This document shows positions 2,225 through 32,518 of a stretch of 64,000 nt of DNA, piece after piece. The notes under the pieces are model-generated. The model did no database searches. It was not told the DNA's origin and was given only the letters and a program-made list of their open reading frames with translations. Source of the DNA: an uncultured Rhodospirillales bacterium (GTDB lineage: Bacteria; Pseudomonadota; Alphaproteobacteria; Rhodospirillales; UBA2165); assembly GCA_913055735.1 (NCBI GenBank), contig CAJXKD010000002.1, positions 472,150-536,149 of the forward strand. Direction: 5' to 3'. The translations under genes were made by a program, and so were the position numbers. Within the stretch, counting starts at the first letter, position 1. Each line of letters begins with the position of its first letter.

Positions 2225-3457
2225 ATGCCAGGAAGACGCGATCATAAGCGCATCCTAATTTATAGTCATGACAGCTTCGGCTTGGGGCACTTGCGCCGAT
2301 GCCGCACTATCGCGCACGCGTTGGTGGGGGATAGCTCCGGTGTATCCGTTCTGATCCTATCGGGGTCACCGATCATCGGAAGCTTCGACTTCCGGGCGCG
2401 CGTCGATTTCGTTCGCATTCCGGGGGTAATCAAGCTGCGCAACGGCGAATACACGTCGTTGAAGTTGCACCTCGATATCGAGCAAACGCTGAATCTCCGA
2501 AGTTCGATCATTCAGCACACCGCCGACGTTTTTGATCCGGACCTGTTTATCGTCGATAAGGAGCCCTTGGGTCTTCACGGGGAGGTCGGCCCGACATTGG
2601 AGCTTCTGAAGGAGCGTGGCACGCCGCTCGTCCTGGGCCTGCGGGACGTCATGGACGAGCCGGGGCTTTTGGCCCCTGAATGGCAGCGCAAGAATGTGAT
2701 GCCGGCCCTTACCCATTTATATGACGAGATTTGGGTCTATGGACTGCCGCAGATTTACGACCCGCTCTCAGGAATGGAGGTGCCGGATTCCGTTCGCCGT
2801 AAAATGGTCTTCACCGGCTATCTCCGCTACGAAATGCCCGATTCCTTGCAGGCTCAGAAACCGACCACACTAGCGGTCGAAGAACCGTATCTATTGGTCA
2901 CTGCGGGTGGCGGAGGCGACGGCGAAGGGCTGATTGATTGGGTGCTTAAAGCGTACGAGACCGATCCCACTATTCCTTATTCGGCGATGATCGTCTTTGG
3001 CCCGTTCATGCAACCCGATGACCGGGAAGCTTTCTTGAGCCGGGTCGCCAAGCTCGATCGGGTAAAAGCGATAACATTCGATGCCCGGTTTGAGGCGTTG
3101 GTCGAGCGCGCCGTCGGTGTTGTCGCGATGGGCGGTTACAACACGTTTTGTGAAATCCTGTCCTTCGACAAACCGGGGCTGATTGTTCCCCGTAAGAGGC
3201 CGAGGCTGGAACAATTCATTCGGGCATCGCGCGCGCAGGAAATCGGTTTGTTGTCCATGTTGGAGGACGACGGCGTTCGGGATCCGAAGCAGATGGCGAC
3301 CGCGCTTCGTCAGCTGCCGCAACAGAAGCGTCCCTCGGAGTTCGTCGTTCCCGGCTTGTTGGATGGCCTGCCCAATATCTGCCGCCTGGTCGACAAGTGG
3401 GTCGACCGGGAGCGTGAGCGGCCGGGTGATTTGACGGTTGTGCGGGGGTCCGCCTGA
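2225..3457 (+). CDS. GT-B glycosyltransferase, MurG-like / COG4671-type (paralog 1)
   Basis: N-terminal YSHDSFGLGHLRRC motif, TAGGGGDG, and C-terminal MGGYNTFCEIL. Paralogous to 6480-7667. Confidence 0.75.
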   Translation: MPGRRDHKRILIYSHDSFGLGHLRRCRTIAHALVGDSSGVSVLILSGSPIIGSFDFRARVDFVRIPGVIKLRNGEYTSLKLHLDIEQTLNLRSSIIQHTADVFDPDLFIVDKEPLGLHGEVGPTLELLKERGTPLVLGLRDVMDEPGLLAPEWQRKNVMPALTHLYDEIWVYGLPQIYDPLSGMEVPDSVRRKMVFTGYLRYEMPDSLQAQKPTTLAVEEPYLLVTAGGGGDGEGLIDWVLKAYETDPTIPYSAMIVFGPFMQPDDREAFLSRVAKLDRVKAITFDARFEALVERAVGVVAMGGYNTFCEILSFDKPGLIVPRKRPRLEQFIRASRAQEIGLLSMLEDDGVRDPKQMATALRQLPQQKRPSEFVVPGLLDGLPNICRLVDKWVDRERERPGDLTVVRGSA

Positions 3458-3509
3458 CAGGCATGGGGCGCTCCAAGCAACTCCCCATAAAATTCTTCAG
3501 GCAACAACC

Positions 3510-4757
3510 ATGACCACAGCTATTGTCGTCAAAGGCTATCCGCGGCTTTCCGAAACGTTTATCGCGCAGGAGATCGAGGCGCTCGAACGGTCGGGTCTTG
3601 ATATCGTGATCGTGTCGTTGCGCCATCCCACGGACAAGGATGTTCATCCCGTTCACCGTCGGATCAAGGCGCCGGTCTTTTATCTTCCGGAATATTTGTT
3701 GCGAGAGCCGTTGCGGGTTTGGCGGGCTTGGCAGGCCGTGCGTAAATGGCCGGCCTACAAAAACGCCAAATTGGTGTGGCTGAGTGATTTGAGGCGCGAT
3801 CTTACCTCCAACCGCATTCGCCGATTCGGACAGGCTTTGGTGTTGGCCCATGAAATGGCCGATACCGTCGAGCGGCTCTACGCCCATTTTCTGCACACGC
3901 CGTCTTCGGTGGCGCGATATGCTTCCATTCTCCGCGAATTGCCATGGTCGGCGGCGGCGCACGCCGTGGATATCTGGACGACCCCCGAATGGGAGTTGCG
4001 GGAAAAGCTTGAGGACGTGGCTTGGGTGACGACCTGCACCGCGGCCAACCGCGACCGTTTGCAGGCGCTGTCGCCGGATCCATCCAAAGTTTCGCTCAAC
4101 TACCACGGACTGGATGTTGCGCGGTTCGAAACGGACGGCATGATCCCGTCGGAGCGGAAGGGCGATAAGGCGACCGACCCTGTTGTCATTTTGTCGGTCG
4201 GCCGCTTGGTTCCCAAGAAAGGCTATGACGATCTTTTGGCGGCGTTGGCGAAGTTGCCGCGCACCCTTCATTGGCGGTTCATCCACGTCGGCGGCGGTCC
4301 TTTGAAAGATCGCCTGACACAGCAGGCGCGCGGCCTCGGGATCGACGGGAATATCGATTGGCTTGGCGCCCAATCTCAGGAAAAGGTCCTCGATCAGTAC
4401 CGGCGTGCGGACCTGTTCGTCTTGACTAGCCGGATCGCAAAAAATGGCGACCGGGACGGATTGCCCAATGTCTTGATGGAGGCGCAGAGCGTTGGATTGC
4501 CCTGTGTGTCGACCCGCGCGTCCGCGATCCCGGAGCTAATCGTCGATGGCGAAACCGGGTTCCTCGTCGAGCCGGGCGATATCGAGGGAATCGAGCGGCA
4601 CTTGGCGCAACTCATCGGTGATCCGGCGCTGCGCCATCAGTTTGGTAAGGCGGGACAACAGTACGTGCGTGCCCATTTCGATTTTAAGCACTGCGTCGGC
4701 GGAATCCGGAAGCTGTTTGGGTTGAAAGACGGCGCGGCGGATACACAGGTCGCATGA
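3510..4757 (+). CDS. Glycosyltransferase family 4 (WcaL/AmsK-like)
   Basis: ATG at 3510 gives MTTAIVVKGYPRLSETFI, a typical N-terminus for this group. GT1-type C-terminal domain (SRIAKNGDRDGLPNVLMEAQSVGLPCVST, ETGFLV). Confidence 0.8.
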   Translation: MTTAIVVKGYPRLSETFIAQEIEALERSGLDIVIVSLRHPTDKDVHPVHRRIKAPVFYLPEYLLREPLRVWRAWQAVRKWPAYKNAKLVWLSDLRRDLTSNRIRRFGQALVLAHEMADTVERLYAHFLHTPSSVARYASILRELPWSAAAHAVDIWTTPEWELREKLEDVAWVTTCTAANRDRLQALSPDPSKVSLNYHGLDVARFETDGMIPSERKGDKATDPVVILSVGRLVPKKGYDDLLAALAKLPRTLHWRFIHVGGGPLKDRLTQQARGLGIDGNIDWLGAQSQEKVLDQYRRADLFVLTSRIAKNGDRDGLPNVLMEAQSVGLPCVSTRASAIPELIVDGETGFLVEPGDIEGIERHLAQLIGDPALRHQFGKAGQQYVRAHFDFKHCVGGIRKLFGLKDGAADTQVA

Positions 4758-5884
4758 ATATTGCCTTCTATGCACCGATGAAACATCCCGGTGCCTCCGT
4801 TCCCTCCGGGGACGTGGCGATTGCACGCGGAATAATCGCCGCACTGGAGCAGGCCGGGCATCAGGTCGACGTCGTCTCTCGATTGCGGACGTGGCAGGCC
4901 GACCCCGATCCAGAGCGGCAGCTGCGGCTGGCGAAAATAAGCCGCCTCATGGCGCAACGCCTGATGCGGCGTTTTCGTGCCCGTCCCGCCGCGTCACAAC
5001 CCGACCTATGGTTCACCTATCATCTGTATTACAAGGCACCCGATTGGCTGGGGCCGGAAGTAAGCCGGGTGTTGGATATTCCTTACGTGGTTGCCGAAGC
5101 GTCGCATGCGCCGAAACGTTTGGGCGGGCCTTGGGACGTAGGCCATCGTGCCGCGGAAGCGGCGATCAGGGCCGCCGATCGGGTGTTCGGGTTGAACTCG
5201 CTCGATGCCGCTTGTATCCGACCGCTTCTCGACGACCCCGCCAAGCTTGTTCAACTCAGGCCATTCATGGATATTCCGCCGATGATTGAGGTCGATCAAC
5301 GGAACGCGCGACGCGACGTGATTGCCGCTCGATACCGGGTGGACGGCGACGCCGTTTGGCTGTTGACGGTGGCGATGATGCGCGATGATGCAAAATTGGA
5401 GTCCTATAGGGTGTTGGCCGACGCCTACAGGCGGCTGACGCGCCGCGATACCACGTTGTTCGTTGTCGGCGATGGCGCGGCGCGGGAAAGGGTGGAAAAG
5501 GCTTTTGCCGATCAAAAGGTTGTCTTTACCGGGCGTTTGGAGGGGGAGTTGCTCGCTTCCTTGCTGGATACAGCCGACATCTATGTTTGGCCTGCCGTGA
5601 ATGAGGCATATGGGATGGCGCTGCTCGAGGCGCAGGCGCATGGATTGCCGGTGGTCGCGGGCAGGGCCGGCGGGGTTGCGGACATTGTCCGAGACGGTAA
5701 GACGGGCCTGCTGACCCCTGAAGGTGACGCTGCGGCGATGGCGGCGGCAATCGCCGGGTTGTGTGACGACCCGACGCGGCGCAATCAAATGGGAAAAGCG
5801 GCGCGGCACACCGTTGTCGCGGAACATAGTCTTACCGCCGCGACCGCAATCCTCGATGGGGCCCTGCGGGAGATTGCCGCATGA
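4754..5884 (+). CDS. Glycosyltransferase group 1
   Basis: EAYGMALLEAQAHGLPVVAGRAGGVADIVRDGKTGLL (E-x7-E type motif). The start overlaps the upstream stop (4754/4757). Confidence 0.8.
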   Translation: MNIAFYAPMKHPGASVPSGDVAIARGIIAALEQAGHQVDVVSRLRTWQADPDPERQLRLAKISRLMAQRLMRRFRARPAASQPDLWFTYHLYYKAPDWLGPEVSRVLDIPYVVAEASHAPKRLGGPWDVGHRAAEAAIRAADRVFGLNSLDAACIRPLLDDPAKLVQLRPFMDIPPMIEVDQRNARRDVIAARYRVDGDAVWLLTVAMMRDDAKLESYRVLADAYRRLTRRDTTLFVVGDGAARERVEKAFADQKVVFTGRLEGELLASLLDTADIYVWPAVNEAYGMALLEAQAHGLPVVAGRAGGVADIVRDGKTGLLTPEGDAAAMAAAIAGLCDDPTRRNQMGKAARHTVVAEHSLTAATAILDGALREIAA

Positions 5885-6483
5885 CGATCCTCGCGATGAT
5901 CCGGCATGGCGACACGGACTGGAACCGGCAAGGACTGATCCAGGGCCACAGTGATATCCCGCTTGGCGAAGAGGGGGAGCGGGATGTCCGCAGTTGGCGT
6001 TTGCCGCCCGACCTCGAAGAATTCGATTGGATCGCAAGCCCTCTGAAACGGGCTTTGGAAACGGCACGTCTCTTGGCGAAACGGGAACCCCGCATAGAAG
6101 AGCGGCTGACGGAAATGAGTTGGGGCGAATGGGAGGGCCGAACCCTCGCAGCACTGCGCGAGGAACTGGGCGATCTCATGCGCGCCTGGGAAGCCCGAGG
6201 TCTCGATTTTCGGGGGCCCGAAGGCGAAAGCCCCCGCGATGTCCAAGACCGCGTCCGGCCATTATTGGCGGAGTTGGCGCAGGCGGGCAAACCGACGGTT
6301 GCCGTTTGCCATCGCGGCGTCATTCGATCGGTCTATGCGATGGCAACGGGATGGGACATGGTGGAAAAGGCGCCGGTGAAATTGCGCGATGCGGCGGTCC
6401 ATTATTTCATTCTGACGTCGGATGGAACGCCTGCCGTCGATCGGCTCAACGTCAAACTCGGTGCCGATCTGGAGCCGCGATGA
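5881..6483 (+). CDS. Histidine phosphatase family protein (phosphoglycerate mutase-like)
   Basis: RHG motif at the N-terminus (MIRHGDTDWN) and a second His motif (VCHRGVIRS). Overlapping start/stop with both neighbours. Confidence 0.8.
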   Translation: MTILAMIRHGDTDWNRQGLIQGHSDIPLGEEGERDVRSWRLPPDLEEFDWIASPLKRALETARLLAKREPRIEERLTEMSWGEWEGRTLAALREELGDLMRAWEARGLDFRGPEGESPRDVQDRVRPLLAELAQAGKPTVAVCHRGVIRSVYAMATGWDMVEKAPVKLRDAAVHYFILTSDGTPAVDRLNVKLGADLEPR

Positions 6484-7667
6484 CGCGCAAAAATGTCTTT
6501 TTTTATGTCCAGCACCTGTTGGGGATCGGTCACCTCAAACGGGCGGCGACACTTGCGCGCGCCATGTCCGAGGAAGGACTGGACGTCACCGTGGTATCGG
6601 GGGGCGAGGAAGTCGACGTGCTTGACCAACACGGCATGACCTTCGTGCAACTTCCGCCGATCCGCACGCGCGATCGCACTTTCAGCGGACTGGTCGACGC
6701 TAGTGGAGAAGATGTCGGCGAAGACCTCAAGCAACGCCGCGCGGCCGTATTGATCGATGCGTTTACATCGGTCCGACCCGACGTGCTGATCGTCGAACTG
6801 TATCCTTTCGGGCGCCGGCAACTCCGCTTCGAGTTGGATCCGTTGCTCGATGCCGCGGACGCCATGCACCCGCGTCCGGTGATCGTGTCGTCGGTGCGCG
6901 ATATACTGGTTGAAAAGAACCGTCCGGAGCGGGACCGGCAGATGGTCGACACGGCCAAGGCCCGTTTCGATGCCGTCATGGTGCACGGCGATCCGGCGTT
7001 CATCCCCCTCGATGCGACGTTCCCGTTGGCCAAGGAAATCGCGGATATGATCCATTACACCGGCTACGTGGTGGAGAAAACGCTTGCCGATGCCGAGGGC
7101 GGAATACAGGGGGCGGGTGAGGTGATCGTTTCCTCCGGCAGCGGCGCGGTGGGCGAACTGTTGCTGAGGACCGCGATGGCGGCGCGGCCACGCACGGGCC
7201 TGTCGCAGGTGACGTGGCGTCTGTTGGCCGGTCCGAGTTTGCCAGACGACGTGTTTATGGATCTAAAGGCTGCGGCGCCGGATGGGGTCATCGTTGAACG
7301 GGCGCGGCGCGATTTCGTGACGTTGTTGAAGAACTGCCGGTTATCGATCTCGCAGGGCGGCTATAACACGGTCATGGAAATTCTGGCAACGGGGGCAAAG
7401 GGAATTGCCGTGCCCTATGCCGGGGGGCATGAAACCGAACAGACACTGCGGACCCGGTTGCTCGCCGAAAGAGGCGCAATTCTGCAGATTCCCGAATCGG
7501 AACTGAATATCGACCGTCTTATCGACATGATCGAGCGCGCGGAAGGCCTTCCCAAACCGAAACCTTATCCATTGGACATGAACGGCGCCGAAAAAGCGGC
7601 CAAATTGGTCGCAACCTGGGCAGCACACGGCCTTGAAAGCGGCATTGCGGCTAATCAATTGGATTAA
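6480..7667 (+). CDS. GT-B glycosyltransferase, MurG-like / COG4671-type (paralog 2)
   Basis: ATG at 6480 gives MTRKNVFFYVQHLLGIGHLKRA, with SQGGYNTVMEIL near the C-terminus. The longer ORF from 5994 overlaps the phosphatase gene out of frame and was trimmed. Confidence 0.75.
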   Translation: MTRKNVFFYVQHLLGIGHLKRAATLARAMSEEGLDVTVVSGGEEVDVLDQHGMTFVQLPPIRTRDRTFSGLVDASGEDVGEDLKQRRAAVLIDAFTSVRPDVLIVELYPFGRRQLRFELDPLLDAADAMHPRPVIVSSVRDILVEKNRPERDRQMVDTAKARFDAVMVHGDPAFIPLDATFPLAKEIADMIHYTGYVVEKTLADAEGGIQGAGEVIVSSGSGAVGELLLRTAMAARPRTGLSQVTWRLLAGPSLPDDVFMDLKAAAPDGVIVERARRDFVTLLKNCRLSISQGGYNTVMEILATGAKGIAVPYAGGHETEQTLRTRLLAERGAILQIPESELNIDRLIDMIERAEGLPKPKPYPLDMNGAEKAAKLVATWAAHGLESGIAANQLD

Positions 7668-7721: not shown

Positions 7722-10700
7722 GTGTCTTTTCGGGGTCGGGCGACAGTATACGGGAAAGGGACCGCGGTGGAGCGGGGCGTCTTCAAATATATCCTGCGCT
7801 ATAGCAGGCCGCAGCAAATCTTGCTGCTGACCCTTTCGGTTCTCTCGTTCCCCGTTTATTACGCGTCTCTGCAGCTCCCCAAGATGATCGTCGATGACGG
7901 TATCGGTGCGGAAGATTTCCCCCGCACGTTCCTCGGCACCGAGTTCGAGCATATTCCTTTTTTGCTGTTTCTCTGCGGCATCTTTCTGGCGCTGGTCTTC
8001 TTCAACGGCGCGTTCAAATACGTCATCAACGTCTTTAAGGGATCGAGCGGCGAGCGCCTGTTGCGCCGTCTCAGATACCAACTTATCTCCCGCGTTCTTC
8101 GCTTCCCGCTGCCGCAGTTCCGGAAAGTGTCGCAAGGCGAATTGGTGTCCATGATCACTGCCGAAACGGAGCCGCTCGGCGGTTTCTTCGGCGAAGGCTT
8201 GGCGACGCCTGTTTATCAAGGCGGAATGTTAGTCACCCTGATGACATTCATGTTCGTGCAGGATTGGAAGCTGGGTCTTGCGGCGGTCGCCCTGTACCCG
8301 TTTCAGGCTTGGCTCATTCCCAAGTTGCAGCGTCAGGTAAATGCGCTCGGCAAGGAGCGGGTGCGAACCGTTCGGCAGTTGTCGGAACGGATTGGCGAGG
8401 CGGTGTCCGGCGCGAGCGAGATTCATGCGAATGATACCGCGCAGTACGAATTGGCCGACTTTTCGTCCCGGTTGGGGCGCATCTATGCCATTCGCTTCGA
8501 GATTTATCTCAAGAAGTTCTTCATCAAGTTCCTGAACAACTTTCTTGCCCAGCTGACACCGTTCTTTTTCTACTCCATTGGCGGCATCCTAGTCATCAAC
8601 GGGCAGATCACGATCGGGGCGCTGATCGCAATCCTTTCGGCTTACAAGGATGTCTTGGCGCCGTGGAAAATTCTGCTCAACTACTATCAGCAGAAAGAGG
8701 ACGCTCGGATCAAATACGAGCAGATCATTGAACGCTTCGAACCTACCGGTCTGCTCGATGAAAAGATGCAGGAGGAAGAGCCGGACGATCTGCCCCGCTT
8801 CGAAGGGCGGCTCGTCGCATCGAACGTCGGCTGGTCCGAGGACGATGGCTTGAAAGTTCTCGACGGGGCGTCGCTCGCCATTGATCTTCCCAAGCACGTC
8901 GCGTTGACCGGCCCGGCCGGCGGCGGGAAGGGGGAGTTCTCGCAACTCCTGGCGCGGCTTTTGGTGCCAAGCAGCGGCCGTATAACGATCGGCGACTCCA
9001 ACCTTATTGAGTTGCCGGAATCGGTAACGGGACGGCGCATCGCCTATGTCGGGCAAAGCCCGTATATGTTCAATGCATCGATCCGCGATAACCTTCTGTA
9101 CGGTCTAAAGCATCGGGTGTTGCAGGAACCCGAATACGACGCCGACGCCCGCAAGGAGCGCGAGAAGGAGATTCTCGAATCCCAAAGATCTGGCAATAGC
9201 GTCTACGATCCTTCAGCGATCTGGGTGGATGTCGGCTCCGCAGGGACTGAAGATGACGAAGCCTTGGCGCACCGGATAAACGAGGTGCTTCGAACGGTGG
9301 GGCTTCGCCGGGACGTCTATCAGATGGGATTGCGCCGGACCATAGACCCGGTGGAGCGGCGGGCCTTGGCCAAGCGGGTGCTTGAGGCGCGCGCCAAGCT
9401 GAGGGAGCGTTTGCTCGACCCTGAGCTCGCCCAATTCGTCGAGACTTTCGATCCGGAAAAATATAATAGCAACGCGTCGGTTGCCGAAAATATCCTGTTC
9501 GGCACGCCGGTCGGCGACCAATTGGCGATCGAGAAGCTCGGGGAAAACAGCTATATGCTGCGTGTTCTCGACGAGGTTGGTCTTGCCCAGGCGTTTCTGG
9601 AAAAGGGCTTGCGGCTCGCGGAGATCATGGTCGATCTGTTCCGCGGCCTGTCACCGGATCACGAGTTCTTCGAGCGGTTCAGCTTCATCAGCTCTGACGA
9701 TTTGCCGGACTTTCAAGCTATTGTACAGCGCGCGGCCCAAAGCGGGCTGGATAGTCTTCCCGAAGACGAGCGGGCGAGACTTCGGGCGTTGCCGTTCCTA
9801 CTGATCCCCGCCCGCCATCACCTGGACATTATCGACGAGCCTTTCCAGCGCCAGTTGTTGGATGCGCGCCGCGCCTTTCATGCCAGCCTCCCCAAGGAAT
9901 TGGCGTCGGCTGTCGAATTCTTCGATGTCGAGAAGTACAACTCCGCGAGTTCCATCCAGGACAATATTCTGTTCGGCAAGCTTGCCCGGGAACGGGCCGG
10001 AAGCGCCGAGAAAGTCGGCGTCTTGCTTGCGGAGGCCGTGGATGAAGTCGGACTTCGCCAGGACATCCTCGAGCTGGGTCTCGACGTCAATGTCGGCATC
10101 GGCGGCAGTCGCTTGTCGGCGCTTCAAAGGCAAAAACTGGCCATCGCCCGAGGCCTGATGAAATGTCCCGATATTTTCATCCTGAACGAAGCGTTGTCGG
10201 GACTCGATCCGGACAACCAATCGTTGTTGCTCGAGAGCGTGTTGCGTGAGCAAGAGGGTCGGTCGGTCGTTTATGTGAACGGACCAACGGCGTCGACGGA
10301 CCATTTCGATCAGGTCATTTCCATCGCCGGTGGGCGAGTGGTCGATCATGGTGTGGGCGCGGCGCCGCCGCTCGAGGAAGCGCCCGCGGTTCCCGCGGAA
10401 GAGGTCGCCGGCGGCGGTTTTGGAGGCGAAATCGATGTTCTGGCGTCGCTTCCCTTGTTTCGTGGCATCGACCGCTCGCGTCTCAAACTGCTGGCCTTCG
10501 CCAGCCAGCGCCACATTTATGACCCGGGTCAGTACGTTATCCGGCAGGGCGAGGTCGGGGAAAACGCCTATATCGTCATTGACGGTGAGGCCGAAATCCT
10601 GCTCGACACGGGAGATGAGTTGAAAAAACTCGCGACATTGAAGCGCAACGACTTGTTCGGCGAACTGGCGCTCCTTTGCGAGGCACCGCGGACCGCCTCG

Positions 10701-11387
10701 ATCGTCGCCTCGACGCCCCTGACGGTTATGAGCATTTCCAAGGACGTTTTCATCAAGCTGGTCGCCGAAGATGTCGAGATGTCGGCGCGGGTGACCCGGT
10801 CTATTGCTGATAGCTTGGTGCGCACGACCGAGGATTTGAGCGAGGCGGCCCGGGTTCACGATTCCACAACGGACCTGCCCGACGCGCGGCTGTTCAACGA
10901 CCGGCTCCGGTATGCGGTTGCGCGCGGACGGCGTTTCCAGGAGGCCGCCGCGATCATTACGTTCAATCTGGAGCGATTCTTCGATGCGGACAGCGGCTAT
11001 TCGGAGGCCGACCGCGATGCTTTGTTAAAAGTCATCGCCGTACGCATCCGCGATGCCATCCGCGAAACAGACATGGCGGCGCGCCTTGATGACCTCGAGT
11101 TCGGGGTTCTCTTAAGTCCGGTCGACGGCAGCCTTTCGCATCAGGATATGGCGCAGCGTATCGCCGACAGTCTGTCTGCGCCTATCGATTTGCCCGAACG
11201 GTCGGTCCGGTTGACTGAAGCATGCGCGTTCAAGTTCCTCCAACTCGACGGCCGGGACGCGGAGGATCAGTTGCGGTCTTGTCGCAAAGGCGAAGGAAAG
11301 GTCATTCAAGTTTCCGGACGGGGGCAGGCGCCGGAACCGCGGCCAAAGGGACAAAATGGTGCCGGTGCCGATCGCAGGTCCACTTAG
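7722..11387 (+). CDS. ABC exporter-type TMD + degenerate/expanded NBD + cNMP-binding domain + degenerate GGDEF domain (1221-aa fusion)
   Basis: Six-TM type I exporter region. NBD-like motifs GPAGGGKGE, LSALQRQ and IFILNEALSGLD. cNMP phosphate-binding cassette FGELALLCEAPRTASIVA. GGDEF-like region with RETD-MAARL-DDLEF. The exact start is uncertain. Confidence 0.8.
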   Translation: MSFRGRATVYGKGTAVERGVFKYILRYSRPQQILLLTLSVLSFPVYYASLQLPKMIVDDGIGAEDFPRTFLGTEFEHIPFLLFLCGIFLALVFFNGAFKYVINVFKGSSGERLLRRLRYQLISRVLRFPLPQFRKVSQGELVSMITAETEPLGGFFGEGLATPVYQGGMLVTLMTFMFVQDWKLGLAAVALYPFQAWLIPKLQRQVNALGKERVRTVRQLSERIGEAVSGASEIHANDTAQYELADFSSRLGRIYAIRFEIYLKKFFIKFLNNFLAQLTPFFFYSIGGILVINGQITIGALIAILSAYKDVLAPWKILLNYYQQKEDARIKYEQIIERFEPTGLLDEKMQEEEPDDLPRFEGRLVASNVGWSEDDGLKVLDGASLAIDLPKHVALTGPAGGGKGEFSQLLARLLVPSSGRITIGDSNLIELPESVTGRRIAYVGQSPYMFNASIRDNLLYGLKHRVLQEPEYDADARKEREKEILESQRSGNSVYDPSAIWVDVGSAGTEDDEALAHRINEVLRTVGLRRDVYQMGLRRTIDPVERRALAKRVLEARAKLRERLLDPELAQFVETFDPEKYNSNASVAENILFGTPVGDQLAIEKLGENSYMLRVLDEVGLAQAFLEKGLRLAEIMVDLFRGLSPDHEFFERFSFISSDDLPDFQAIVQRAAQSGLDSLPEDERARLRALPFLLIPARHHLDIIDEPFQRQLLDARRAFHASLPKELASAVEFFDVEKYNSASSIQDNILFGKLARERAGSAEKVGVLLAEAVDEVGLRQDILELGLDVNVGIGGSRLSALQRQKLAIARGLMKCPDIFILNEALSGLDPDNQSLLLESVLREQEGRSVVYVNGPTASTDHFDQVISIAGGRVVDHGVGAAPPLEEAPAVPAEEVAGGGFGGEIDVLASLPLFRGIDRSRLKLLAFASQRHIYDPGQYVIRQGEVGENAYIVIDGEAEILLDTGDELKKLATLKRNDLFGELALLCEAPRTASIVASTPLTVMSISKDVFIKLVAEDVEMSARVTRSIADSLVRTTEDLSEAARVHDSTTDLPDARLFNDRLRYAVARGRRFQEAAAIITFNLERFFDADSGYSEADRDALLKVIAVRIRDAIRETDMAARLDDLEFGVLLSPVDGSLSHQDMAQRIADSLSAPIDLPERSVRLTEACAFKFLQLDGRDAEDQLRSCRKGEGKVIQVSGRGQAPEPRPKGQNGAGADRRST

Positions 11388-11415: not shown

Positions 11416-11907
11416 TTGATGACGCAACCGCATAGATATCCATTTGAGCATCTCCGTGCCGACTATCTACGGGCAGGGGGCGGCGTCGTGCTGTGTTTGG
11501 CCCCCTTTGCCGTCGGGATGCCGTTGTCGGGCGGCGCGTGGGTTCTGTTGGGATGTGCGGCATTGTTTTTGCTCTACGGTCTGCGGACGGGAATGCGCCA
11601 AATGACCCGTGTTTGGGTCACTGATGACGGCATCGTTTCCGACGGCCCCATCAAAACGCGCATTGCCTGGGAAACGCTTGAAGATGTTCGGCTTTCTTAT
11701 TTCTCCACACGCCGCGGATCGGCGTCGGGCTGGCTGCAGCTTCGCCTCAAAGGAGCCGGTGCGACGATCCGGCTGGAATCGACGTTGACCGGTTTCGACG
11801 ATGTCGTGCGGTGCGCACTTCGCAAGGCTGGGGAACGAAGCCTTGCGTTGAACGCCGCGACGCAAAACAATATTTCGGCAATGGGACTTGTGACGGCGGA
11901 TGGCTGA
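11416..11907 (+). CDS. Hypothetical membrane protein (two N-terminal TM segments plus soluble C-terminal domain)
   Basis: 163-aa ORF with hydrophobic N-terminus. Its 3' end overlaps the ATG of the following ABC ATPase by 8 nt (11900-11907). No family recognised. Confidence 0.5.
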   Translation: MMTQPHRYPFEHLRADYLRAGGGVVLCLAPFAVGMPLSGGAWVLLGCAALFLLYGLRTGMRQMTRVWVTDDGIVSDGPIKTRIAWETLEDVRLSYFSTRRGSASGWLQLRLKGAGATIRLESTLTGFDDVVRCALRKAGERSLALNAATQNNISAMGLVTADG

Positions 11908-13831
11908 ACTTTCACAAAAGAGCAACTTGCTTCGGGTCGAGAATCTGAAAGTCGAATTCAGAACGCAATCCGGCGTCGTTTCCGCCGTTGACGGCGTGTC
12001 ATTCGCCGTGGAGCCGGGCGCGACGGTGGCCATTGTTGGTGAGTCCGGATCAGGCAAGTCGACGGTCGCGCAAGCCATCATGGGGATTTTACCGAAAGTC
12101 GCGTCGATCACCGGCGGGCAAATTCTGTTCAACGATCCGGACCACCGGGAAGGCCGGTCGCAATCGATGCAATTCCCGGATGGCGTCGATATCGCCAAGC
12201 TGAAACCGAGTGGCCGTGAGATGCAGTGCATTCGCGGCGGTCGTATCTCCATGATCTTTCAGGAGCCGATGACCTCCTTGTCGCCGCTACATACCATCGG
12301 CAACCAGATCAGCGAAGCCAACATGCTCCATTGCGGAACGAGCAAGAAGGAAGCCCTTGAGGCAACAACCGAGATGTTGCGCCTCGTCGGGTTCCCCGAT
12401 CCTGAGAAGGCCGTTCACACCTACCCCTTCGAGCTTTCCGGCGGATTGCGCCAGCGGGCGATGATCGCGATGGCGTTGGTTTGCGACCCGGCCTTACTGA
12501 TCGCCGATGAGCCGACGACGGCGCTGGACGTGACCATCCAGGCGCAGATCTTGAAGCTGATCAGCGATTTGCAATACCGATTGAAGATGGCGGTGCTAAT
12601 TATCACGCACGATCTCGGTGTCGTGGCCAACGTCGCCGACAATGTGGTGGTTTTGTACAACGGCCAGGTGATGGAATCTGGGCCCGTTCAGGAGATATTC
12701 GAAAAACCTGAGCATCCGTATTTGAAATCGCTCTTCCGCGCGGTGCCGCATTTCGACATGAAACCAGGAGAGCGGTTGGTCCCCATTCGGGAAATCAAGC
12801 ACACCACGGGGCATTTGTTGGCGCCGAAGGAAGATGCAGTTGCCGGAGGGCAGGACGACGCGCCGCTGCTCAGCGTCAAGAACCTGAGTAAGTCGTTCAC
12901 GGTCCGTCAGGAAGGGTTGCTCGGCGGCGGTACGACCCGCATAAGGGCCGTTCAGGATGTCAGCTTCGATATCGCGCGCGGTGAGACTCTCGGACTGGTG
13001 GGGGAAAGCGGGTGCGGCAAAACCACCGTGAGCAAGATGATCATGCGGGCGGTCAACCCCGATGGCGGTCAAATTCTGTTCAGGGACGGCGGCAACGTGA
13101 TTGATCTGACGTCCTTGAGCCAACGGGAGCTCATCCCTTACCGGCGTAAGTTTCAATATGTTTTCCAGGATCCTTTCGGCTCGCTCAATCCGCGCATGAC
13201 GGTCTACGACATCATCAGCGAGCCGCTGATGATCCACGACATCGGGGATGCCGATTATAAGCGGGAGATGGTGAAGGAGCTCATGAACCTCGTGGGACTG
13301 GACCCGAGATTCCTCAATCGGTACCCGCACAGTTTCTCCGGCGGTCAACGGCAACGGATCAGTATCGCGCGGTCCCTGGCACTCAAACCGGAACTATTGC
13401 TGTGCGATGAGCCTGTCTCCGCATTGGATGTTTCCGTGCAAGCGCAAATCCTCAATCTTATGAAAGACTTACAAGAAGAACTTGGCCTTACTTATCTATT
13501 CGTTTCGCACAATTTGGCGGTTGTCGATTATGTTGCGGACCGGATCGCCGTCATGTGCGCGGGGCAAATGGTCGAGTTGGCGCGGCGTGAGGAATTATTT
13601 AAGAATCCCGTTCATCCTTATACGAAAGCCCTCTTGGCGGCGGTTCCGTTTCCCGATCTCGATCGGCGTCTCGACTTGACCGCGCTCATGGAAGGCAAGG
13701 CGTCGGTTCCGTCATTATGGCCCGAACCGTTCGCCGTAAAACCGGGGGTGAACCCGGTATTGGTGGATATCGGGAACGAACATTTTGTCAGGGTTTCAGG
13801 CGAAGCGTCTGATTTGAGGGAAGCATCATGA
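11900..13831 (+). CDS. Peptide/opine-type ABC importer ATPase with duplicated NBD (DppD-DppF fusion, YejF-like)
   Basis: Two full NBDs: GESGSGKST...LSGGLRQR...[11 protein letters not shown] and GESGCGKTT...FSGGQRQR...[11 protein letters not shown]. Confidence 0.9.
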
Positions 13832-15735
13832 GACGGTTAGCGGGCATTTTTCTTGCTGCGTGGGTGATTGCGGTCGGCGTTGGCGTCGCGCCGTTGGGCG
13901 CGATGACGTTCAAGGAAACGCCAAGCCTGGAAGACGCGGTCAAATCCGGGAAATTACCGCCCATCGCCGAGCGCCTTCCGGACAATCCGTCGGTGGTGAA
14001 GTTCACCCGCCCGGACCGCGGTCTGGGGACGCCTGGCGGTACGTTGAATACGTTGATGGGCGCCGAGAAAGACGTGCGCCAGATGGTCGTGTACGGCTAT
14101 GCGCGGCTCATCGGCTATGACGAAGACTTCGAATTGGTGCCGGACATCGCCGAAAAGATCGATGTGGAGGAGGGGCGGATTTTCACGTTCCACCTGCGCA
14201 AGGGGCACCGGTGGTCCGACGGGCACCCGTTTACTGCGGAAGATTTCCGGTATTGGTGGGAGGACATGGCCCTCAATCCGGATATATCCAAACTCGGCCC
14301 CCCCGCGTTCATGATGGCTGACGGCGAGCGGCCGAAATTCGAGGTCATCGATGAAACGACCGTGCGGTATAGCTGGTCACGGCCGCAGCCGGACTTTCTG
14401 ACACGGCTTGCCGGTGCGCGCCCGGAGTTCATCTATCGCCCGGCGCATTATATGAAGCAATTTCACGCCAAGTATCAGGATCCGGCGAAACTCGAACAAC
14501 TGGTCAAGGAAGAACACCGGCGCAATTGGGTCGCCCTCCATTTCTTCCACGATCGCCCGTACAAGAACGACAATCCGCATTTCCCGACGTTGCAGCCATG
14601 GATGCTGACCAACGAACCACCTGCCAAGCGCTTCGTTTTCAAGCGTAACCCGTATTATTACCGCGTCGACGAAGCCGGGCGGCAATTGCCTTACATCGAT
14701 GAGGTGATCGTGACGATCGCGAGCGCCAAACTGATCCCGCCCAAGACAGGTACCGGGGAAACCGATCTCCAGGCCCGTGGGCTGACGCTCAAGAATTTCC
14801 CGTTCCTCAAAAAAGCGGAGAAACGGAACGGCTACAGAATTTATCTTTGGCCGACGGCCAAAGGTTCCGAGATGGTTCTCTATCCCAATCTGAATCACAA
14901 CGATCCCGAATGGCGAAAACTGTTCCGCGACATTCGCTTCCGGCGCGCACTGTCGTTGGCAACCGACCGCGGGCAGATCAACAAGCTGATCTATTTCGGT
15001 TTGGCGTCCCCCTCCGCAAACGCGATCCTGCCGGAAAGCCCCTTGTACAAAGCGAAGTATGGGGAGCACTGGGCGGAGTACGATTTAAAGAAGGCCAACG
15101 CACTTTTGGACGAAATGGGCCTGACCAAGCGCAATGACAGCGGCATTCGCGTTTTGCCCGACGGGCGTCCGTTGGAAATCACGGTGGAAACCTCTGGCGA
15201 GAACCTGGAGCAAACGGATGTTCTCCAACTGGTGGCGGAAACCTGGAAAAAGGCCGGCGTAAAGATGTTTATCAAGCCGTCGCAGCGCGAGGTCCTGCGT
15301 AACCGGGTTTTCTCAGGCGAAACGCAAATGGCCGTGTGGTCGGGGCTCGAGAACGGCGTGCCGACGGCTGAATCGAGCCCCGCGGAACTGGCGCCCTTGA
15401 GTCAGCAGCATCTTCAATGGCCGAAATGGGGACAGTACCTGGAAACCAATGGCAAGGCCGGCGAGCCGATCGATATGCCCAAGGCTAAGCACCTCATGGA
15501 CCTCTACGATAATTGGACCATGGCAACCTCGACGGACGAGAAACGGAAAATCTGGCACGAGATGCTCGATATCTACACCGAGCAGGTCTACACGATTGGA
15601 TTGATTTCCCGCGTGCCGCAGCCGGTCGTCGTGAACTCCCGTCTTCGGAACGTTCCCGATAAGGCGATCTACAACTGGGATCCGGGTGCCCATTTCGGCA
15701 TCTACCATCCCGATACATTTTGGTTTGAGCAATAG
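13828..15735 (+). CDS. ABC transporter substrate-binding protein, family 5 (peptide/nickel/opine type)
   Basis: Signal peptide ([25 protein letters not shown]), 635 aa, family-5 SBP-like sequence. Start overlaps the upstream stop. Confidence 0.85.
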   Translation: MRRLAGIFLAAWVIAVGVGVAPLGAMTFKETPSLEDAVKSGKLPPIAERLPDNPSVVKFTRPDRGLGTPGGTLNTLMGAEKDVRQMVVYGYARLIGYDEDFELVPDIAEKIDVEEGRIFTFHLRKGHRWSDGHPFTAEDFRYWWEDMALNPDISKLGPPAFMMADGERPKFEVIDETTVRYSWSRPQPDFLTRLAGARPEFIYRPAHYMKQFHAKYQDPAKLEQLVKEEHRRNWVALHFFHDRPYKNDNPHFPTLQPWMLTNEPPAKRFVFKRNPYYYRVDEAGRQLPYIDEVIVTIASAKLIPPKTGTGETDLQARGLTLKNFPFLKKAEKRNGYRIYLWPTAKGSEMVLYPNLNHNDPEWRKLFRDIRFRRALSLATDRGQINKLIYFGLASPSANAILPESPLYKAKYGEHWAEYDLKKANALLDEMGLTKRNDSGIRVLPDGRPLEITVETSGENLEQTDVLQLVAETWKKAGVKMFIKPSQREVLRNRVFSGETQMAVWSGLENGVPTAESSPAELAPLSQQHLQWPKWGQYLETNGKAGEPIDMPKAKHLMDLYDNWTMATSTDEKRKIWHEMLDIYTEQVYTIGLISRVPQPVVVNSRLRNVPDKAIYNWDPGAHFGIYHPDTFWFEQ

Positions 15736-15771
15736 ACGGCTCCGGAGCGGGCGACGGAGAGCTGACCGTTC

Positions 15772-16767
15772 ATGTTGAATTATCTCGCACGCCGCATATT
15801 GGTGATGATCGTAACCTTGGCGATCATCAGCCTGATGGTGTTCGTGATCATTCAATTGCCGGAAGGTGATTTCCTCACCAGCTATATCACCGAGTTGCAA
15901 AGCCAGGGCGAGGCGGTCGACAAGCAGAAGATCGAATATCTACGGGCGCAATATGGCCTCGATCAACCCTTGTGGCAGCAATACCTCACCTGGGTCGGCG
16001 GATTGGTGCAAGGCGACCTCGGATATTCCTTCGAGTACGACCTGCCGGTGACGGTCGTTCTCGGTGACCGATTGCTCCTGACCATCGTCGTCAATTTCTT
16101 TTCTGTTCTGTTCATCTACATCATTGCGTTCCCCATCGGTGTCTATTCGGCGGTGCGCCAATACAGTTGGGGCGACTACGGCCTGACGCTGGTCGGATTC
16201 TTGGGGCTGGCGACGCCCAATTTTTTGCTGGCGCTGATCCTCATGTATCTCGCCAACCGCTATTTCGGCACCTCCATCGGCACGTTGATGGCACCCGAAT
16301 ACCTCGATCAACCCATGTCCTTCGGCAAGATGATTTCCATCCTCGAACATCTGGCGGTGCCGGTGATCATTATCGGCACGGCGGGCACGGCGGGGATGAT
16401 CCGCCGGCTGCGCGCCAATCTTCTCGACGAATTGTTCAAGCAGTATGTGGTGACAGCCCGCGCCAAAGGTCTGTCCGAGGGTAAGTTGCTGGTCAAATAC
16501 CCGCTGCGTATGGCGCTCAACCCGTTTATCGCCGACATCGGCAATTTGCTGCCGCAAGTGGTCTCGGGCTCGGTCATCGTGTCCATCGTCATGGGCCTGG
16601 AAACCGTCGGTCCGCCGCTGGTCAAGGCGTTGCAGAGCCAGGATTTCTTCCTCTCCGGGGCGGTGTTGATGTTTGTCGCGCTGCTCACCGTCATCGGCAT
16701 GTTCATTTCTGATCTGGCACTGGCGGTTCTCGATCCCCGTATCCGGTTGCAGGGGGGCGCGCGGTAA
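15772..16767 (+). CDS. ABC transporter permease (DppB/YejB-like)
   Basis: N-terminal MLNYLARRILVMIVTL motif typical of DppB-type permeases, and an EAA loop (ARAKGLSEGKLLVKYPLRMALNP). Confidence 0.9.
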   Translation: MLNYLARRILVMIVTLAIISLMVFVIIQLPEGDFLTSYITELQSQGEAVDKQKIEYLRAQYGLDQPLWQQYLTWVGGLVQGDLGYSFEYDLPVTVVLGDRLLLTIVVNFFSVLFIYIIAFPIGVYSAVRQYSWGDYGLTLVGFLGLATPNFLLALILMYLANRYFGTSIGTLMAPEYLDQPMSFGKMISILEHLAVPVIIIGTAGTAGMIRRLRANLLDELFKQYVVTARAKGLSEGKLLVKYPLRMALNPFIADIGNLLPQVVSGSVIVSIVMGLETVGPPLVKALQSQDFFLSGAVLMFVALLTVIGMFISDLALAVLDPRIRLQGGAR

Positions 16768-32018: not shown

Positions 32019-32510
32019 ATGAAGAAAGTCATCATCGCGTTTCTGATCGGCGGCATCCTCGGGGGCGGCGCGGGGTTCGGTGCCGGTATCTTTCTGTTTC
32101 CCTTCCTGTTCCAATCCGACATCGTCGCCATCGAAGCGCCGCCGGAAGGCGGCACGATGGAGGTCGTGGCGACGGGCCGCTTCATCCATGCCGATCCGTC
32201 GGATTCGCTTCATTACGGCAAGGGTAAGCTGACGGTCTATGGCGATACCATCCATCTCGGTGCCGATTTCGAAGTGGGGCCGGGGCCCAAATACCGCGTG
32301 TATCTGGTCGACATCGCCGACATCAAAGAGTCCGACGATGTGAAGAATGCGAATTTCGTCGATATCGGTCCGTTGCGCGCTTTCAAGGGAAGTCAGAACT
32401 ATAAGATACCGGCCAATGTATCGCTCGGTGATTACAAGAGCGTGGTAATTTGGTGCGAGGCGTTCGGCGTACTGGTGTCGCCGGCCAATCTGGAATTCAC
32501 CGGTTCGTAA
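32019..32510 (+). CDS. DM13 domain-containing protein with N-terminal membrane anchor
   Basis: ATG at 32019 (MKKVIIAFLIGG...). GKGKLTVYGD...GPGPKYRVYL...VVIWCEAFGV resembles the DM13 pattern. Confidence 0.65.
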   Translation: MKKVIIAFLIGGILGGGAGFGAGIFLFPFLFQSDIVAIEAPPEGGTMEVVATGRFIHADPSDSLHYGKGKLTVYGDTIHLGADFEVGPGPKYRVYLVDIADIKESDDVKNANFVDIGPLRAFKGSQNYKIPANVSLGDYKSVVIWCEAFGVLVSPANLEFTGS

Positions 32511-32518
32511 CGTTTCGC

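What the first reader, a model, noticed from the sequence alone, without database searches (positions are those of the whole stretch)
7722..11387. ABC exporter fused to a cNMP-binding domain and a degenerate GGDEF that retains its RxxD I-site
One 1221-aa ORF combines four parts. It has a type I exporter TMD and an NBD-like region. It has a cyclic-nucleotide-binding domain whose phosphate-binding cassette keeps the Arg (FGELALLCEAPRTASIVA, about 10655-10710). It also has a GGDEF-like domain in which GGDEF is replaced by DDLEF (11088-11102) and the upstream catalytic positions are also changed (FNLE for DxD; YSEADRD for GHxxGD). Exactly five residues upstream of DDLEF is RETD (11061-11072), the canonical spacing of the RxxD inhibitory site. 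A dead active site with a preserved I-site is the hallmark of c-di-GMP receptor domains of the PelD/PopA type. Next to a glycosyltransferase operon, this predicts a polysaccharide export component gated by two second messengers. I have not seen this architecture described.
Basis: partly seen in the sequence, partly recalled or inferred. Interest (0 to 1): 0.75.

Follow-up and report, generated by a model that had tools for sequence, protein, structure and literature searches.

The report
Messenger-sensing pseudo-ABC exporter with c-di-GMP I-site
A conserved membrane protein of marine Rhodospirillales has the fold of an ABC exporter but its ATPase motifs are dead, and it carries two intact-looking second-messenger sensors (a cyclic-nucleotide domain and a c-di-GMP 'I-site' in a dead GGDEF domain), so it probably lets the cell switch the output of a neighbouring sugar-adding gene cluster on or off.

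Summary
It is not a chimera: more than 100 protein clusters and 198 species genomes, mostly Rhodospirillales, have relatives.

RETD aligns with the RxxD I-site of YfiN and PleD. Among 98 family members no one keeps GG[DE]EF, yet R1114, D1117 and R1146 (PleD R359, D362, R390) are kept in 97, 96 and 89. The cNMP phosphate-binding cassette is invariant.

Two corrections matter:
- **The NBD is a pseudo-ATPase.** Walker B Asp is Asn in 119/121, the H-loop His is absent, LSGGQ and the A-loop are degenerate, and a 270-aa insert made of duplicated NBD segments splits the domain. This is ancestral to a wider sensor-less family.
- **The context is not a classical polysaccharide locus.** It is a conserved module of four glycosyltransferases, a histidine phosphatase, this protein and an Opp/Yej-like importer.

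Best reading: an ATPase-dead exporter-fold conduit or flippase for an unknown glycoconjugate, controlled by c-di-GMP and a cyclic nucleotide. Ligand binding and substrate are untested. This is a new variant of a known receptor kind.

The parts
7767..11387 (+). Gene for the 1206-aa ABC_membrane / pseudo-NBD / cNMP / GGDEF-like protein.
   Evidence: ORF list and translation. A database protein P0001, 100% identical, starts at 7767. GGAAAGGG lies before the GTG. The family consensus begins MExGIF.
7767..8756 (+). Transmembrane domain with six long helices, type IV / ABCB-MsbA-like exporter fold. It is the best-conserved part of the protein.
   Evidence: Pfam ABC_membrane, 83 bits. AF2 shows helices 5-46, 62-110, 115-162, 177-222, 225-277 and 283-323. 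Foldseek hits ABCB1, TmrAB and TM287/288. Mean pairwise identity is 0.66.
8757..9128 (+). N-terminal half of the pseudo-NBD. Walker A is GPAGGGKG (nt 8910-8933), with Gly where Ser/Thr should follow the Lys.
   Evidence: Pfam ABC_tran stretch 380-480. Walker A Lys is present in 102/121 members, but Ser/Thr after it in only 55/121. The A-loop position is aromatic in 38/121.
9129..9956 (+). Family-specific, mostly helical insert of about 270 aa inside the NBD, built from duplicated copies of the Q-loop-to-helical-subdomain segment.
   Evidence: aa 560-700 against aa 700-830 gives local alignment score 123, z = 16.7 against shuffles. No Pfam model covers it. AF2 pLDDT exceeds 90. The insert alone finds 590 cluster representatives at E <= 1e-10.
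9957..10361 (+). C-terminal half of the pseudo-NBD. The signature is LSALQ (nt 10113-10127) and Walker B is FILNE with Asn for Asp (nt 10176-10190). There is no H-loop His.
   Evidence: PDB alignment to ABCB4. Walker B is Asn in 119/121 members. The H-loop column is D/P/T/G/E/N and never His. The same degeneracy is seen in the wider family.
10362..10436 (+). Flexible Ala/Pro/Glu/Gly-rich linker between the NBD and the sensor module.
   Evidence: AF2 pLDDT is below 50 for model residues 864-885. Pairwise identity is 0.27.
10437..10781 (+). Cyclic-nucleotide-binding domain. The phosphate-binding cassette FGELALLCEAPRTASIVA is at nt 10656-10709.
   Evidence: Pfam cNMP_binding, E = 6.7e-20, profile positions 4-89 of 89. 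G980, E981, A983, R990 and A992 are kept in 118-119 of 119 members. PDB hits are CNB domains of PKG.
10782..10859 (+). Long helix running from the cNMP C-helix into the GGDEF-like domain (stalk).
   Evidence: AF2 helices 992-1001 and 1003-1028 in model numbering.
10860..11282 (+). Catalytically dead GGDEF-fold domain that keeps the I-site: RETD (nt 11061-11072), R1146 (nt 11157-11159) and invariant R1071 (nt 10932-10934). DDLEF (nt 11088-11102) replaces GGDEF.
   Evidence: Pfam GGDEF, 53 bits. PDB phmmer hits YfiN at E = 1e-14. The AF2 domain model has pLDDT 87, with Foldseek TM 0.70-0.78 to GGDEF structures.
2225..7667 (+). Conserved upstream module. It comprises a GT-B glycosyltransferase with a weak GT28_C match (2225-3457), GT4 (3510-4757), GT4 (4754-5884), a His_Phos_1 phosphatase (5881-6483) and a GT28_C-like glycosyltransferase (6480-7667).
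   Evidence: Pfam and NCBIfam. Gene calls in L001. Synteny is kept in 26 of 37 species loci that have 6 kb or more of flank on both sides.
11488..17921 (+). Conserved downstream module. It comprises a small membrane ORF (11488-11907), a fused double ATPase (11900-13831), an SBP_bac_5 binding protein (13828-15735) and two permeases (15772-16767, 16767-17921), forming an Opp/Yej-type ABC importer.
   Evidence: Pfam and NCBIfam. Synteny including rearranged and single-operon forms.

Best explanation
The gene encodes a homodimer-type, ABCB/MsbA-fold inner-membrane protein. Its nucleotide-binding domain has lost the residues needed to hydrolyse ATP. Two ligand sensors hang from its C-terminus on a flexible linker.

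**Shown by computation**
- The architecture.
- The dead GGDEF active site.
- Family-wide retention of the three primary I-site residues.
- The intact cNMP cassette.
- The degenerate ATPase motifs.
- The linkage to a module of four glycosyltransferases, a phosphatase and an importer.

**Inferred**
- c-di-GMP, probably as an intercalated dimer, binds R1114, D1117 and R1146. It may bridge to the invariant R1071 of the partner subunit, as in product-inhibited PleD and WspR.
- A cyclic nucleotide (cAMP or cGMP) binds the cassette and moves the C-helix, which continues as the stalk helix into the GGDEF-like domain.
- Together these two events fix or release the pair of pseudo-NBDs. That sets the conformation of the highly conserved transmembrane domain, which serves as a gated conduit or flippase (or a PelD-like activating partner) for the still unidentified small glycoconjugate made by the neighbouring enzymes.

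The sensors are lineage-specific additions to an older sensor-less pseudo-ABC family.
For: **Domains and fold:**

**I-site**
- RETD aligns with RESD of YfiN.
- PleD R359, D362 and R390 map to R1114 (97/98), D1117 (96/98) and R1146 (89 Arg plus 5 Lys of 98).
- PleD catalytic residues D327, D329, K332, N335, D344, GGEEF, K442 and R446 are unconserved.
- 0 of 98 members have GG[DE]EF. There are 27 different RxxD variants, with only the R and D fixed.
- The domain is the fastest-evolving one, at 29% pairwise identity.
- RETD sits at the alpha2-beta2 turn and DDLEF on the beta2-beta3 hairpin of the models.

**cNMP cassette:** invariant.

**Pseudo-NBD:**

**Precedents**
- PssE has a degenerate GGDEF with RxxD five residues upstream and is the last gene of an EPS operon. 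It binds c-di-GMP with Kd 0.79 uM and a 2:1 stoichiometry (PMC4125290).
- HetC is an ABC exporter with a required cNMP-type domain (PMC10986499).

**Context:** conserved through rearrangements and across Alpha- and Gammaproteobacteria.
Against: - No binding data exist for any family member.
- YfiN, the closest solved relative, keeps RxxD, yet from my recollection of the literature it is not feedback-inhibited. RxxD alone is therefore not sufficient.
- The invariant R1071 is three residues away from the position aligned with PleD R313. Its role as a secondary I-site is conjecture.
- No residue outside the GGDEF-like domain is conserved specifically in GGDEF-bearing members. That gives no sign of a docking surface on the NBD or the cNMP domain.
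- About 20% of close relatives lack the GGDEF-like domain in the same gene context, so it is dispensable for the core function.
- A subclade at about 44% identity lies outside the glycosyltransferase cluster.
- The substrate is unknown. A partner half-transporter with a working NBD encoded elsewhere cannot be excluded.
- cNMP-type domains can bind other ligands (PMC10986499).
Confidence: 0.6

Rival explanations
1. The protein is a working ATP-driven ABC exporter of an exopolysaccharide, and its pump cycle is gated by cAMP/cGMP and c-di-GMP.
For: It is homologous to MsbA, HepA, PglK and ChvA-type exporters. In this protein the Walker A Lys, the Glu after Walker B and the D-loop Asp are present. 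It lies next to glycosyltransferase genes.
Against: Walker B Asp is Asn in 119/121 members. The H-loop His is absent. Ser/Thr after the Walker A Lys is present in only 55/121. The LSGGQ glycines are lost and the A-loop is aromatic in 38/121. In the wider family the Walker A Lys is present in only 29/60 and the Q-loop Gln in 4/60. By my own knowledge, engineered Asp-to-Asn changes at Walker B abolish ATPase activity in P-glycoprotein. The conserved cluster has no polymerase, co-polymerase or outer-membrane export genes.
Confidence: 0.12
2. The GGDEF-like domain is an evolutionary remnant kept only as a dimerisation or structural module. It binds no nucleotide, and only the cNMP domain (if anything) senses a ligand.
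For: It is the least conserved domain, at 29% identity. It is absent from about 20% of close relatives in the same context. No co-conserved partner surface was found. R1108, another invariant Arg, matches an Arg that YfiN, the 5m3c GGDEF domain and PleD (R353) also carry. Some conserved Arg residues could therefore be structural.
Against: Decay without function would not keep R1114, D1117 and R1146 at 91-99% while every catalytic position drifts. If 9 of 141 columns are the most conserved, the chance that they include all three PleD I-site positions is about 2e-4 (my calculation). The same signature correctly predicted c-di-GMP binding in PssE (PMC4125290).
Confidence: 0.15
3. The protein is not a conduit. 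It is a membrane-anchored regulator or scaffold of PelD type that recruits or activates the cytoplasmic glycosyltransferases when messengers bind. The ABC-fold part serves only as anchor and dimeriser.
For: The pseudo-NBD argues against pumping. By my own knowledge, PelD is a membrane protein with a degenerate GGDEF I-site that controls a GT4 enzyme, PelF, and two GT4 genes are in this cluster.
Against: The transmembrane domain is the most conserved region (66% identity, with dozens of invariant residues). That is more than an anchor would need. The sensor-less core form is the commonest one and keeps the same gene context, so the core function does not depend on sensing.
Confidence: 0.13

Closest known systems
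PssE of Listeria monocytogenes (I-site c-di-GMP receptor; PMC4125290) and PelD of Pseudomonas aeruginosa (PelD from my own knowledge)
   Same: All have a degenerate GGDEF domain that keeps RxxD five residues before the dead motif. All are encoded within or at the end of a glycosyltransferase cluster. PssE binds c-di-GMP at 0.79 uM with a 2:1 stoichiometry.
   Different: PssE and PelD are simple membrane-anchored receptors; PelD has TM, GAF and GGDEF domains. Here the receptor domain is fused behind a cNMP domain to an ABC-exporter-fold protein. No binding has been measured.
PleD and WspR diguanylate cyclases (allosteric product inhibition at the I-site)
   Same: The GGDEF fold is the same (Foldseek TM 0.67-0.78). 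R359, D362 and R390 of PleD align with R1114, D1117 and R1146. An Arg sits at the end of helix alpha1, near PleD R313.
   Different: All catalytic residues are lost, so no c-di-GMP can be made. R1071 is offset by three residues from R313. The output is a membrane module rather than cyclase activity.
HetC of Nostoc PCC 7120 (PMC10986499)
   Same: It is an ABC exporter carrying a cNMP-type ligand-binding domain that is required for function.
   Different: In HetC the domain is N-terminal and next to a C39 peptidase. It binds ppGpp in vitro, and the catalytic ATPase residue is essential. HetC has no GGDEF domain.
MsbA / ABCB-type (type IV fold) half-transporters
   Same: The TMD and NBD are homologous (MsbA model E = 5.6e-55; ABCB1 and TmrAB by fold).
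   Different: Scores are far below every NCBIfam cut-off (187 bits against 602 for MsbA). The catalytic motifs are degenerate, and a 270-aa duplicated insert splits the NBD.
ABC proteins with degenerate nucleotide sites (CFTR NBD1, TAP1, TM287/288, Pdr5; from my own knowledge)
   Same: They have non-hydrolytic nucleotide sites that regulate rather than power the cycle.
   Different: Those proteins keep one working site. Here a homodimer would have two degenerate sites, and the natural Walker B Asp-to-Asn change is, to my knowledge, not a feature of those examples.

Membership tests
ABC type IV (ABCB/MsbA-like) exporter | Six-helix ABC_membrane domain followed by an ABC_tran domain | tested here: met
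   Pfam scores of 83 and 46 bits are above the cut-offs. The AF2 model matches ABCB1, TmrAB and TM287/288 by Foldseek.
ABC type IV (ABCB/MsbA-like) exporter | Catalytically competent NBD: Walker A GxxGxGK[ST], Walker B hhhhDE, LSGGQ, H-loop His and an A-loop aromatic residue | tested here: not met
   The motifs here are GPAGGGKG, FILNE and LSALQ, with no H-loop His. Asn at Walker B is present in 119/121 members, the A-loop is aromatic in 38/121, and the wider family is even more degenerate.
ABC type IV (ABCB/MsbA-like) exporter | ATP-dependent substrate translocation | not testable with these tools
   This needs ATPase and transport assays.
cNMP_binding (CAP/PKA-type) domain | Beta-roll with a phosphate-binding cassette G-E-L-A...R-[ST]-A | tested here: met
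   Pfam E = 6.7e-20 with full-length coverage. G980, E981, A983, R990 and A992 are kept in at least 118 of 119 members.
cNMP_binding (CAP/PKA-type) domain | Binding of cAMP or cGMP | not testable with these tools
   The RTA[ST] motif occurs in both cAMP and cGMP binders (my own knowledge). HetC's domain binds ppGpp (PMC10986499).
Active diguanylate cyclase (GGDEF) | GG[DE]EF motif plus metal- and GTP-binding residues (PleD D327, E370, N335, D344, K442, R446) | tested here: not met
   DDLEF replaces the motif here. 0 of 98 family members have GG[DE]EF, and all the listed positions are unconserved.
Degenerate-GGDEF I-site c-di-GMP receptors (PelD, PopA, PssE type) | GGDEF fold with an inactive A-site | tested here: met
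Degenerate-GGDEF I-site c-di-GMP receptors (PelD, PopA, PssE type) | RxxD exactly five residues before the motif position, plus the third I-site Arg (PleD R390) | tested here: met
   RETD, then five residues, then DDLEF. The equivalents of R359, D362 and R390 are conserved in 97, 96 and 89 of 98 members.
Degenerate-GGDEF I-site c-di-GMP receptors (PelD, PopA, PssE type) | Measured I-site-dependent c-di-GMP binding | not testable with these tools
   This needs ITC, DRaCALA or equilibrium dialysis, with R1114A, D1117A and R1146A controls.
Classical polysaccharide export loci (Wzx/Wzy, ABC Wzm/Wzt-KpsMT, or synthase-dependent) | Priming transferase, polymerase or synthase, co-polymerase and outer-membrane export protein in the cluster | tested here: not met
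   The conserved genes are four GT-B glycosyltransferases, a His_Phos_1 phosphatase, this protein, a small ORF and an Opp/Yej-type importer. None of the hallmark families appears.

The most novel reading that the evidence does not exclude
The whole insert-bearing family could be a class of 'pseudo-ABC' exporters that no longer use ATP hydrolysis at all. In the Rhodospirillales branch, opening and closing would be driven by second-messenger binding (c-di-GMP cross-linking the two tails, and a cyclic nucleotide moving the stalk). The protein would then be a messenger-gated release valve for a small secreted glycoside, which the co-encoded Opp-like importer takes back up. The logic would match opine metallophore systems: make, release, recapture.
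Probability: 0.12. Interest if true: 0.85.

Novelty: new variant of a known kind. Interest (0 to 1): 0.55.

Why it matters
Degenerate GGDEF domains with a preserved I-site are an established way for cells to read c-di-GMP. Known cases act on synthases, glycosyltransferases or cell-pole factors. Here the receptor is built into a transporter-fold protein, together with a second, different nucleotide sensor. That would put two messenger systems on one membrane output.

The ABC module itself has lost its ATPase motifs across a family of several hundred sequence clusters, yet its transmembrane domain is strongly conserved. This raises the question of what an exporter fold does without a motor.

The family, with its partner cluster of four glycosyltransferases, a phosphatase and an importer, is widespread in marine and freshwater Rhodospirillales and some Gammaproteobacteria. 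It has no characterised member, so identifying the product would assign a function to a common, unannotated gene cluster.

Tried and rejected
- **Assembly chimera: rejected.** The same architecture occurs at 45-64% identity in more than 100 protein clusters, including complete chromosomes such as OZ243926.1.
- **RETD as a chance match: rejected** by alignment to YfiN and PleD and by family conservation.
- **Active cyclase: rejected**.
- **Secondary I-site outside the GGDEF-like domain.** I searched for columns conserved only in GGDEF-bearing members and found none.
- **Identifying the two GT28_C-like enzymes.** There are no sequence relatives in the PDB at E <= 0.1 and no NCBIfam equivalog for any cluster gene. 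The product remains unknown.
- **Riboswitches or other RNA elements** (for example c-di-GMP riboswitches) in the window: no Rfam or tRNA hits.
- **Promoter and terminator scans** around the gene gave only chance-level matches. Co-transcription with the upstream genes is neither shown nor excluded.
- **Cyclase, GGDEF or EAL genes elsewhere in the window.** None was found among 20 further ORFs scanned between 21.8 and 55 kb.
- **Context of the ~44% identity subclade** (unknown 330-aa protein, PmbA/TldD, YegS-like lipid kinase, hybrid kinase) gave no clear functional lead.
- **Literature.** Six searches found no description of the fusion. The library lacks most subscription journals, so absence is not proof.

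Full report
**1. The observation**

The ORF 7722-11387 on the + strand is present and uninterrupted. Pfam finds four domains above their curated cut-offs:
- ABC_membrane, aa 81-306.
- ABC_tran in two separated stretches, aa 380-480 and about 737-866.
- cNMP_binding, aa 933-1017.
- GGDEF, aa 1045-1183.

The phosphate-binding cassette lies at nt 10656-10709, RETD at 11061-11072 and DDLEF at 11088-11102, with five residues between RETD and DDLEF.

The start is probably GTG 7767 rather than 7722. The identical database protein starts there. The family consensus begins MExGIF. GGAAAGGG precedes that GTG.

**2. It is a real, conserved gene**

A search of 5.8 billion protein clusters gave more than 100 clusters at 45-64% identity with the same four Pfam domains. 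About a fifth end after the cNMP domain, at roughly 1030 aa. A scan of one genome per species found 198 genomes with a relative. These are mostly Rhodospirillales MAGs, but they include complete chromosomes and cultured Roseospira, Zavarzinia and Defluviicoccus. The chimera explanation is excluded.

**3. The GGDEF-like domain**

*Alignment to solved structures.* The closest solved relative by sequence is the GGDEF domain of YfiN/TpbB (E = 1e-14). In that ungapped alignment RETDMAARLDDLEF lies on RESDLVARLGGDEF.

I then aligned it with the 98 family members that have the domain.
- PleD R359, D362 and R390, the primary I-site by established knowledge of PleD, map to R1114, D1117 and R1146.
- These are conserved in 97, 96 and 89 (plus 5 Lys) of 98 members.
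- PleD D327, D329, K332, N335, D344, G368-F372, K442 and R446 map to unconserved positions.

*Motif variation.* No member has GG[DE]EF, and more than 60 different pentapeptides occur at that position. RxxD is kept with 27 different middle pairs.

*Rate of evolution.* The domain is the fastest-evolving part of the protein, at 29% mean pairwise identity. Only nine columns reach 90% conservation, and three of them are the I-site trio. I calculate about 2e-4 for that by chance.

*Other invariant arginines.* R1071 (93/98) lies at the end of helix alpha1, three residues after the position aligned with PleD R313. R1108 aligns with R353 of PleD and with an Arg in YfiN and the 5m3c GGDEF domain.

*Structure predictions.*
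- The AlphaFold models (full length: pLDDT 85, pTM 0.71; domain alone: pLDDT 87, pTM 0.84) give the GGDEF topology.
- RETD sits at the alpha2-beta2 turn and DDLEF on the beta2-beta3 hairpin.
- Foldseek returns only GGDEF domains (TM 0.70-0.78, rmsd about 2 A). Several of those structures contain bound c-di-GMP.

RETD is at the I-site.

**4. The cNMP domain**

The domain covers the full Pfam profile. G-E-L-A and R-T-A of its cassette are invariant in 118-119 of 119 members. It is the second-best conserved domain, at 54% identity. Its C-helix runs into a long helix that leads to the GGDEF-like domain. The sequence cannot tell whether the ligand is cAMP, cGMP or something else. The cNMP-type domain of the ABC exporter HetC binds ppGpp (PMC10986499).

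**5. The ABC part is not an ordinary pump**

The transmembrane domain has the type IV exporter fold. It is the most conserved region, at 66% identity.

The NBD is degenerate in the following ways:
- Walker A is GPAGGGKG. The Lys is kept in 102/121 members, but Ser/Thr after it in only 55/121.
- The A-loop position is aromatic in 38/121.
- The signature is LSALQ, and the two glycines are lost family-wide.
- Walker B is FILNE. Asn replaces Asp in 119/121.
- No His occurs at the H-loop.

Between the Q-loop and the signature lies an insert of about 270 aa that Pfam does not cover. It arose by duplication: aa 560-700 and aa 700-830 align with z = 16.7, and a third, weaker copy starts at the Q-loop. 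It is confidently modelled as helical.

Searching the insert alone against 1.84 billion cluster representatives gives 872 hits at E <= 1e-3, 590 at E <= 1e-10 and 202 at E <= 1e-30. Of 60 near-full-length representatives, 42 have no sensor domain, 15 have cNMP only and 3 have both. Their ATPase motifs are even more degenerate: Walker A Lys in 29/60 and Q-loop Gln in 4/60.

The pseudo-NBD is therefore ancestral, and the sensors are later additions. From established knowledge, Asp-to-Asn at Walker B abolishes ATPase activity in engineered ABC proteins. I infer little or no hydrolysis here.

**6. Context**

The gene sits in a conserved arrangement:
- A GT-B enzyme with a weak GT28_C match.
- Two GT4 enzymes.
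- A His_Phos_1 phosphatase whose best, sub-threshold match is alpha-ribazole phosphatase.
- A second GT28_C-like enzyme.
- This gene.
- A small membrane ORF.
- An Opp/Yej-type importer: fused double ATPase, SBP_bac_5 binding protein and two permeases.

Of 37 species loci with 6 kb or more on both sides, 26 keep at least three of the five glycosylation genes. That includes 16 of 20 GGDEF-bearing forms. The linkage survives inversion of the ABC gene (for example L046, L066, L074). In some loci (for example L070 and L072) all eleven genes lie on one strand, consistent with a single operon.

None of the hallmark genes of polysaccharide polymerisation and export is present. A subclade at about 44% identity lies in other contexts.

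A small glycoconjugate made through a phosphorylated intermediate, released and perhaps re-imported fits better than a polymer. This is inference.

**7. Mechanism proposed**

The computed results are the architecture, the dead A-site, the preserved I-site and cassette, the pseudo-NBD and the gene linkage.

The inferred steps are these:
- c-di-GMP binds R1114, D1117 and R1146 and may bridge the two tails of the dimer through R1071.
- A cyclic nucleotide moves the C-helix and stalk.
- Together they set the state of the pseudo-NBD pair and hence of the transmembrane conduit.

I put 0.6 on this overall reading. The rivals are a true ATP-driven pump (0.12), a vestigial GGDEF domain (0.15) and a pure regulator or scaffold (0.13).

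**8. Comparison with what is known**

The receptor logic matches PssE (PMC4125290) and PelD. The I-site geometry matches PleD and WspR. A cNMP-type domain on an ABC exporter has a precedent in HetC.

The protein is not a member of any NCBIfam-defined transporter family; the best hit, MsbA, scores 187 bits against a cut-off of 602. It fails the catalytic tests for both an ABC ATPase and a diguanylate cyclase. No paper with this fusion was found. Database names are generic.

**9. Verdict**

The finding is a new variant of a known receptor kind, attached to an unusual, apparently motor-less ABC family. Interest is 0.55.

Noticed in passing
window 9129-9956 (aa 470-745 of the ORF): The NBD is split by an insert of about 270 aa made of duplicated copies of its own Q-loop-to-helical-subdomain segment (z = 16.7 for two copies). 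No Pfam model covers it. The insert defines a family of about 590 sequence clusters, most of which have no sensor domains.
   Followed up: partly
window 10176-10190 (Walker B FILNE): Asn replaces the Walker B Asp in 119 of 121 close relatives. This is a fixed, apparently selected substitution rather than random decay. The neighbouring catalytic Glu is kept in only 87/121.
   Followed up: partly
window 11488-17921: The Opp/Yej-like importer has an unusual gene order: a small membrane ORF, then the fused double ATPase, the binding protein and the two permeases, with overlapping stop and start codons. It stays linked to the glycosyltransferase genes even in genomes where the ABC gene has moved to the other strand. 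In some distant loci a 245-255 aa protein (faint DUF2334 match in L005) replaces the small ORF.
   Followed up: partly
window 2225-3457 and 6480-7667: The two GT-B proteins with only weak GT28_C matches have no PDB sequence relative at E <= 0.1 and no NCBIfam family. The first is nonetheless one of the best-conserved genes of the cluster (59-77% identity across species).
   Followed up: partly
window 3-2083: The end of an SBP_bac_1 / BPD_transp_1 / ABC_tran importer lies just upstream. It is syntenic only in the closer relatives (L001-L004), so it is probably not part of the conserved module.
   Followed up: partly
L042, L044, L047, L049, L051, L052, L056 (about 44% identity homologues): A GGDEF-bearing subclade lies outside the glycosyltransferase cluster. 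Its neighbours are an unannotated 330-aa protein, PmbA/TldD, a YegS-like lipid kinase and a Cache hybrid histidine kinase with a single-domain response regulator.
   Followed up: partly
window 26190-27194 (-), 32450-33406 (+), 39709-40554 (-): Three ORFs of 280-334 aa have no Pfam match or only a marginal one. The first has a sub-threshold receiver-domain hit at its C-terminus.
   Followed up: no
PDB entries 9g85 and 9g86 in the fold search: Recent PleD structures contain ppGpp or pppGpp as well as c-di-GMP. (p)ppGpp should therefore be included when testing ligands of this GGDEF-like domain.
   Followed up: no
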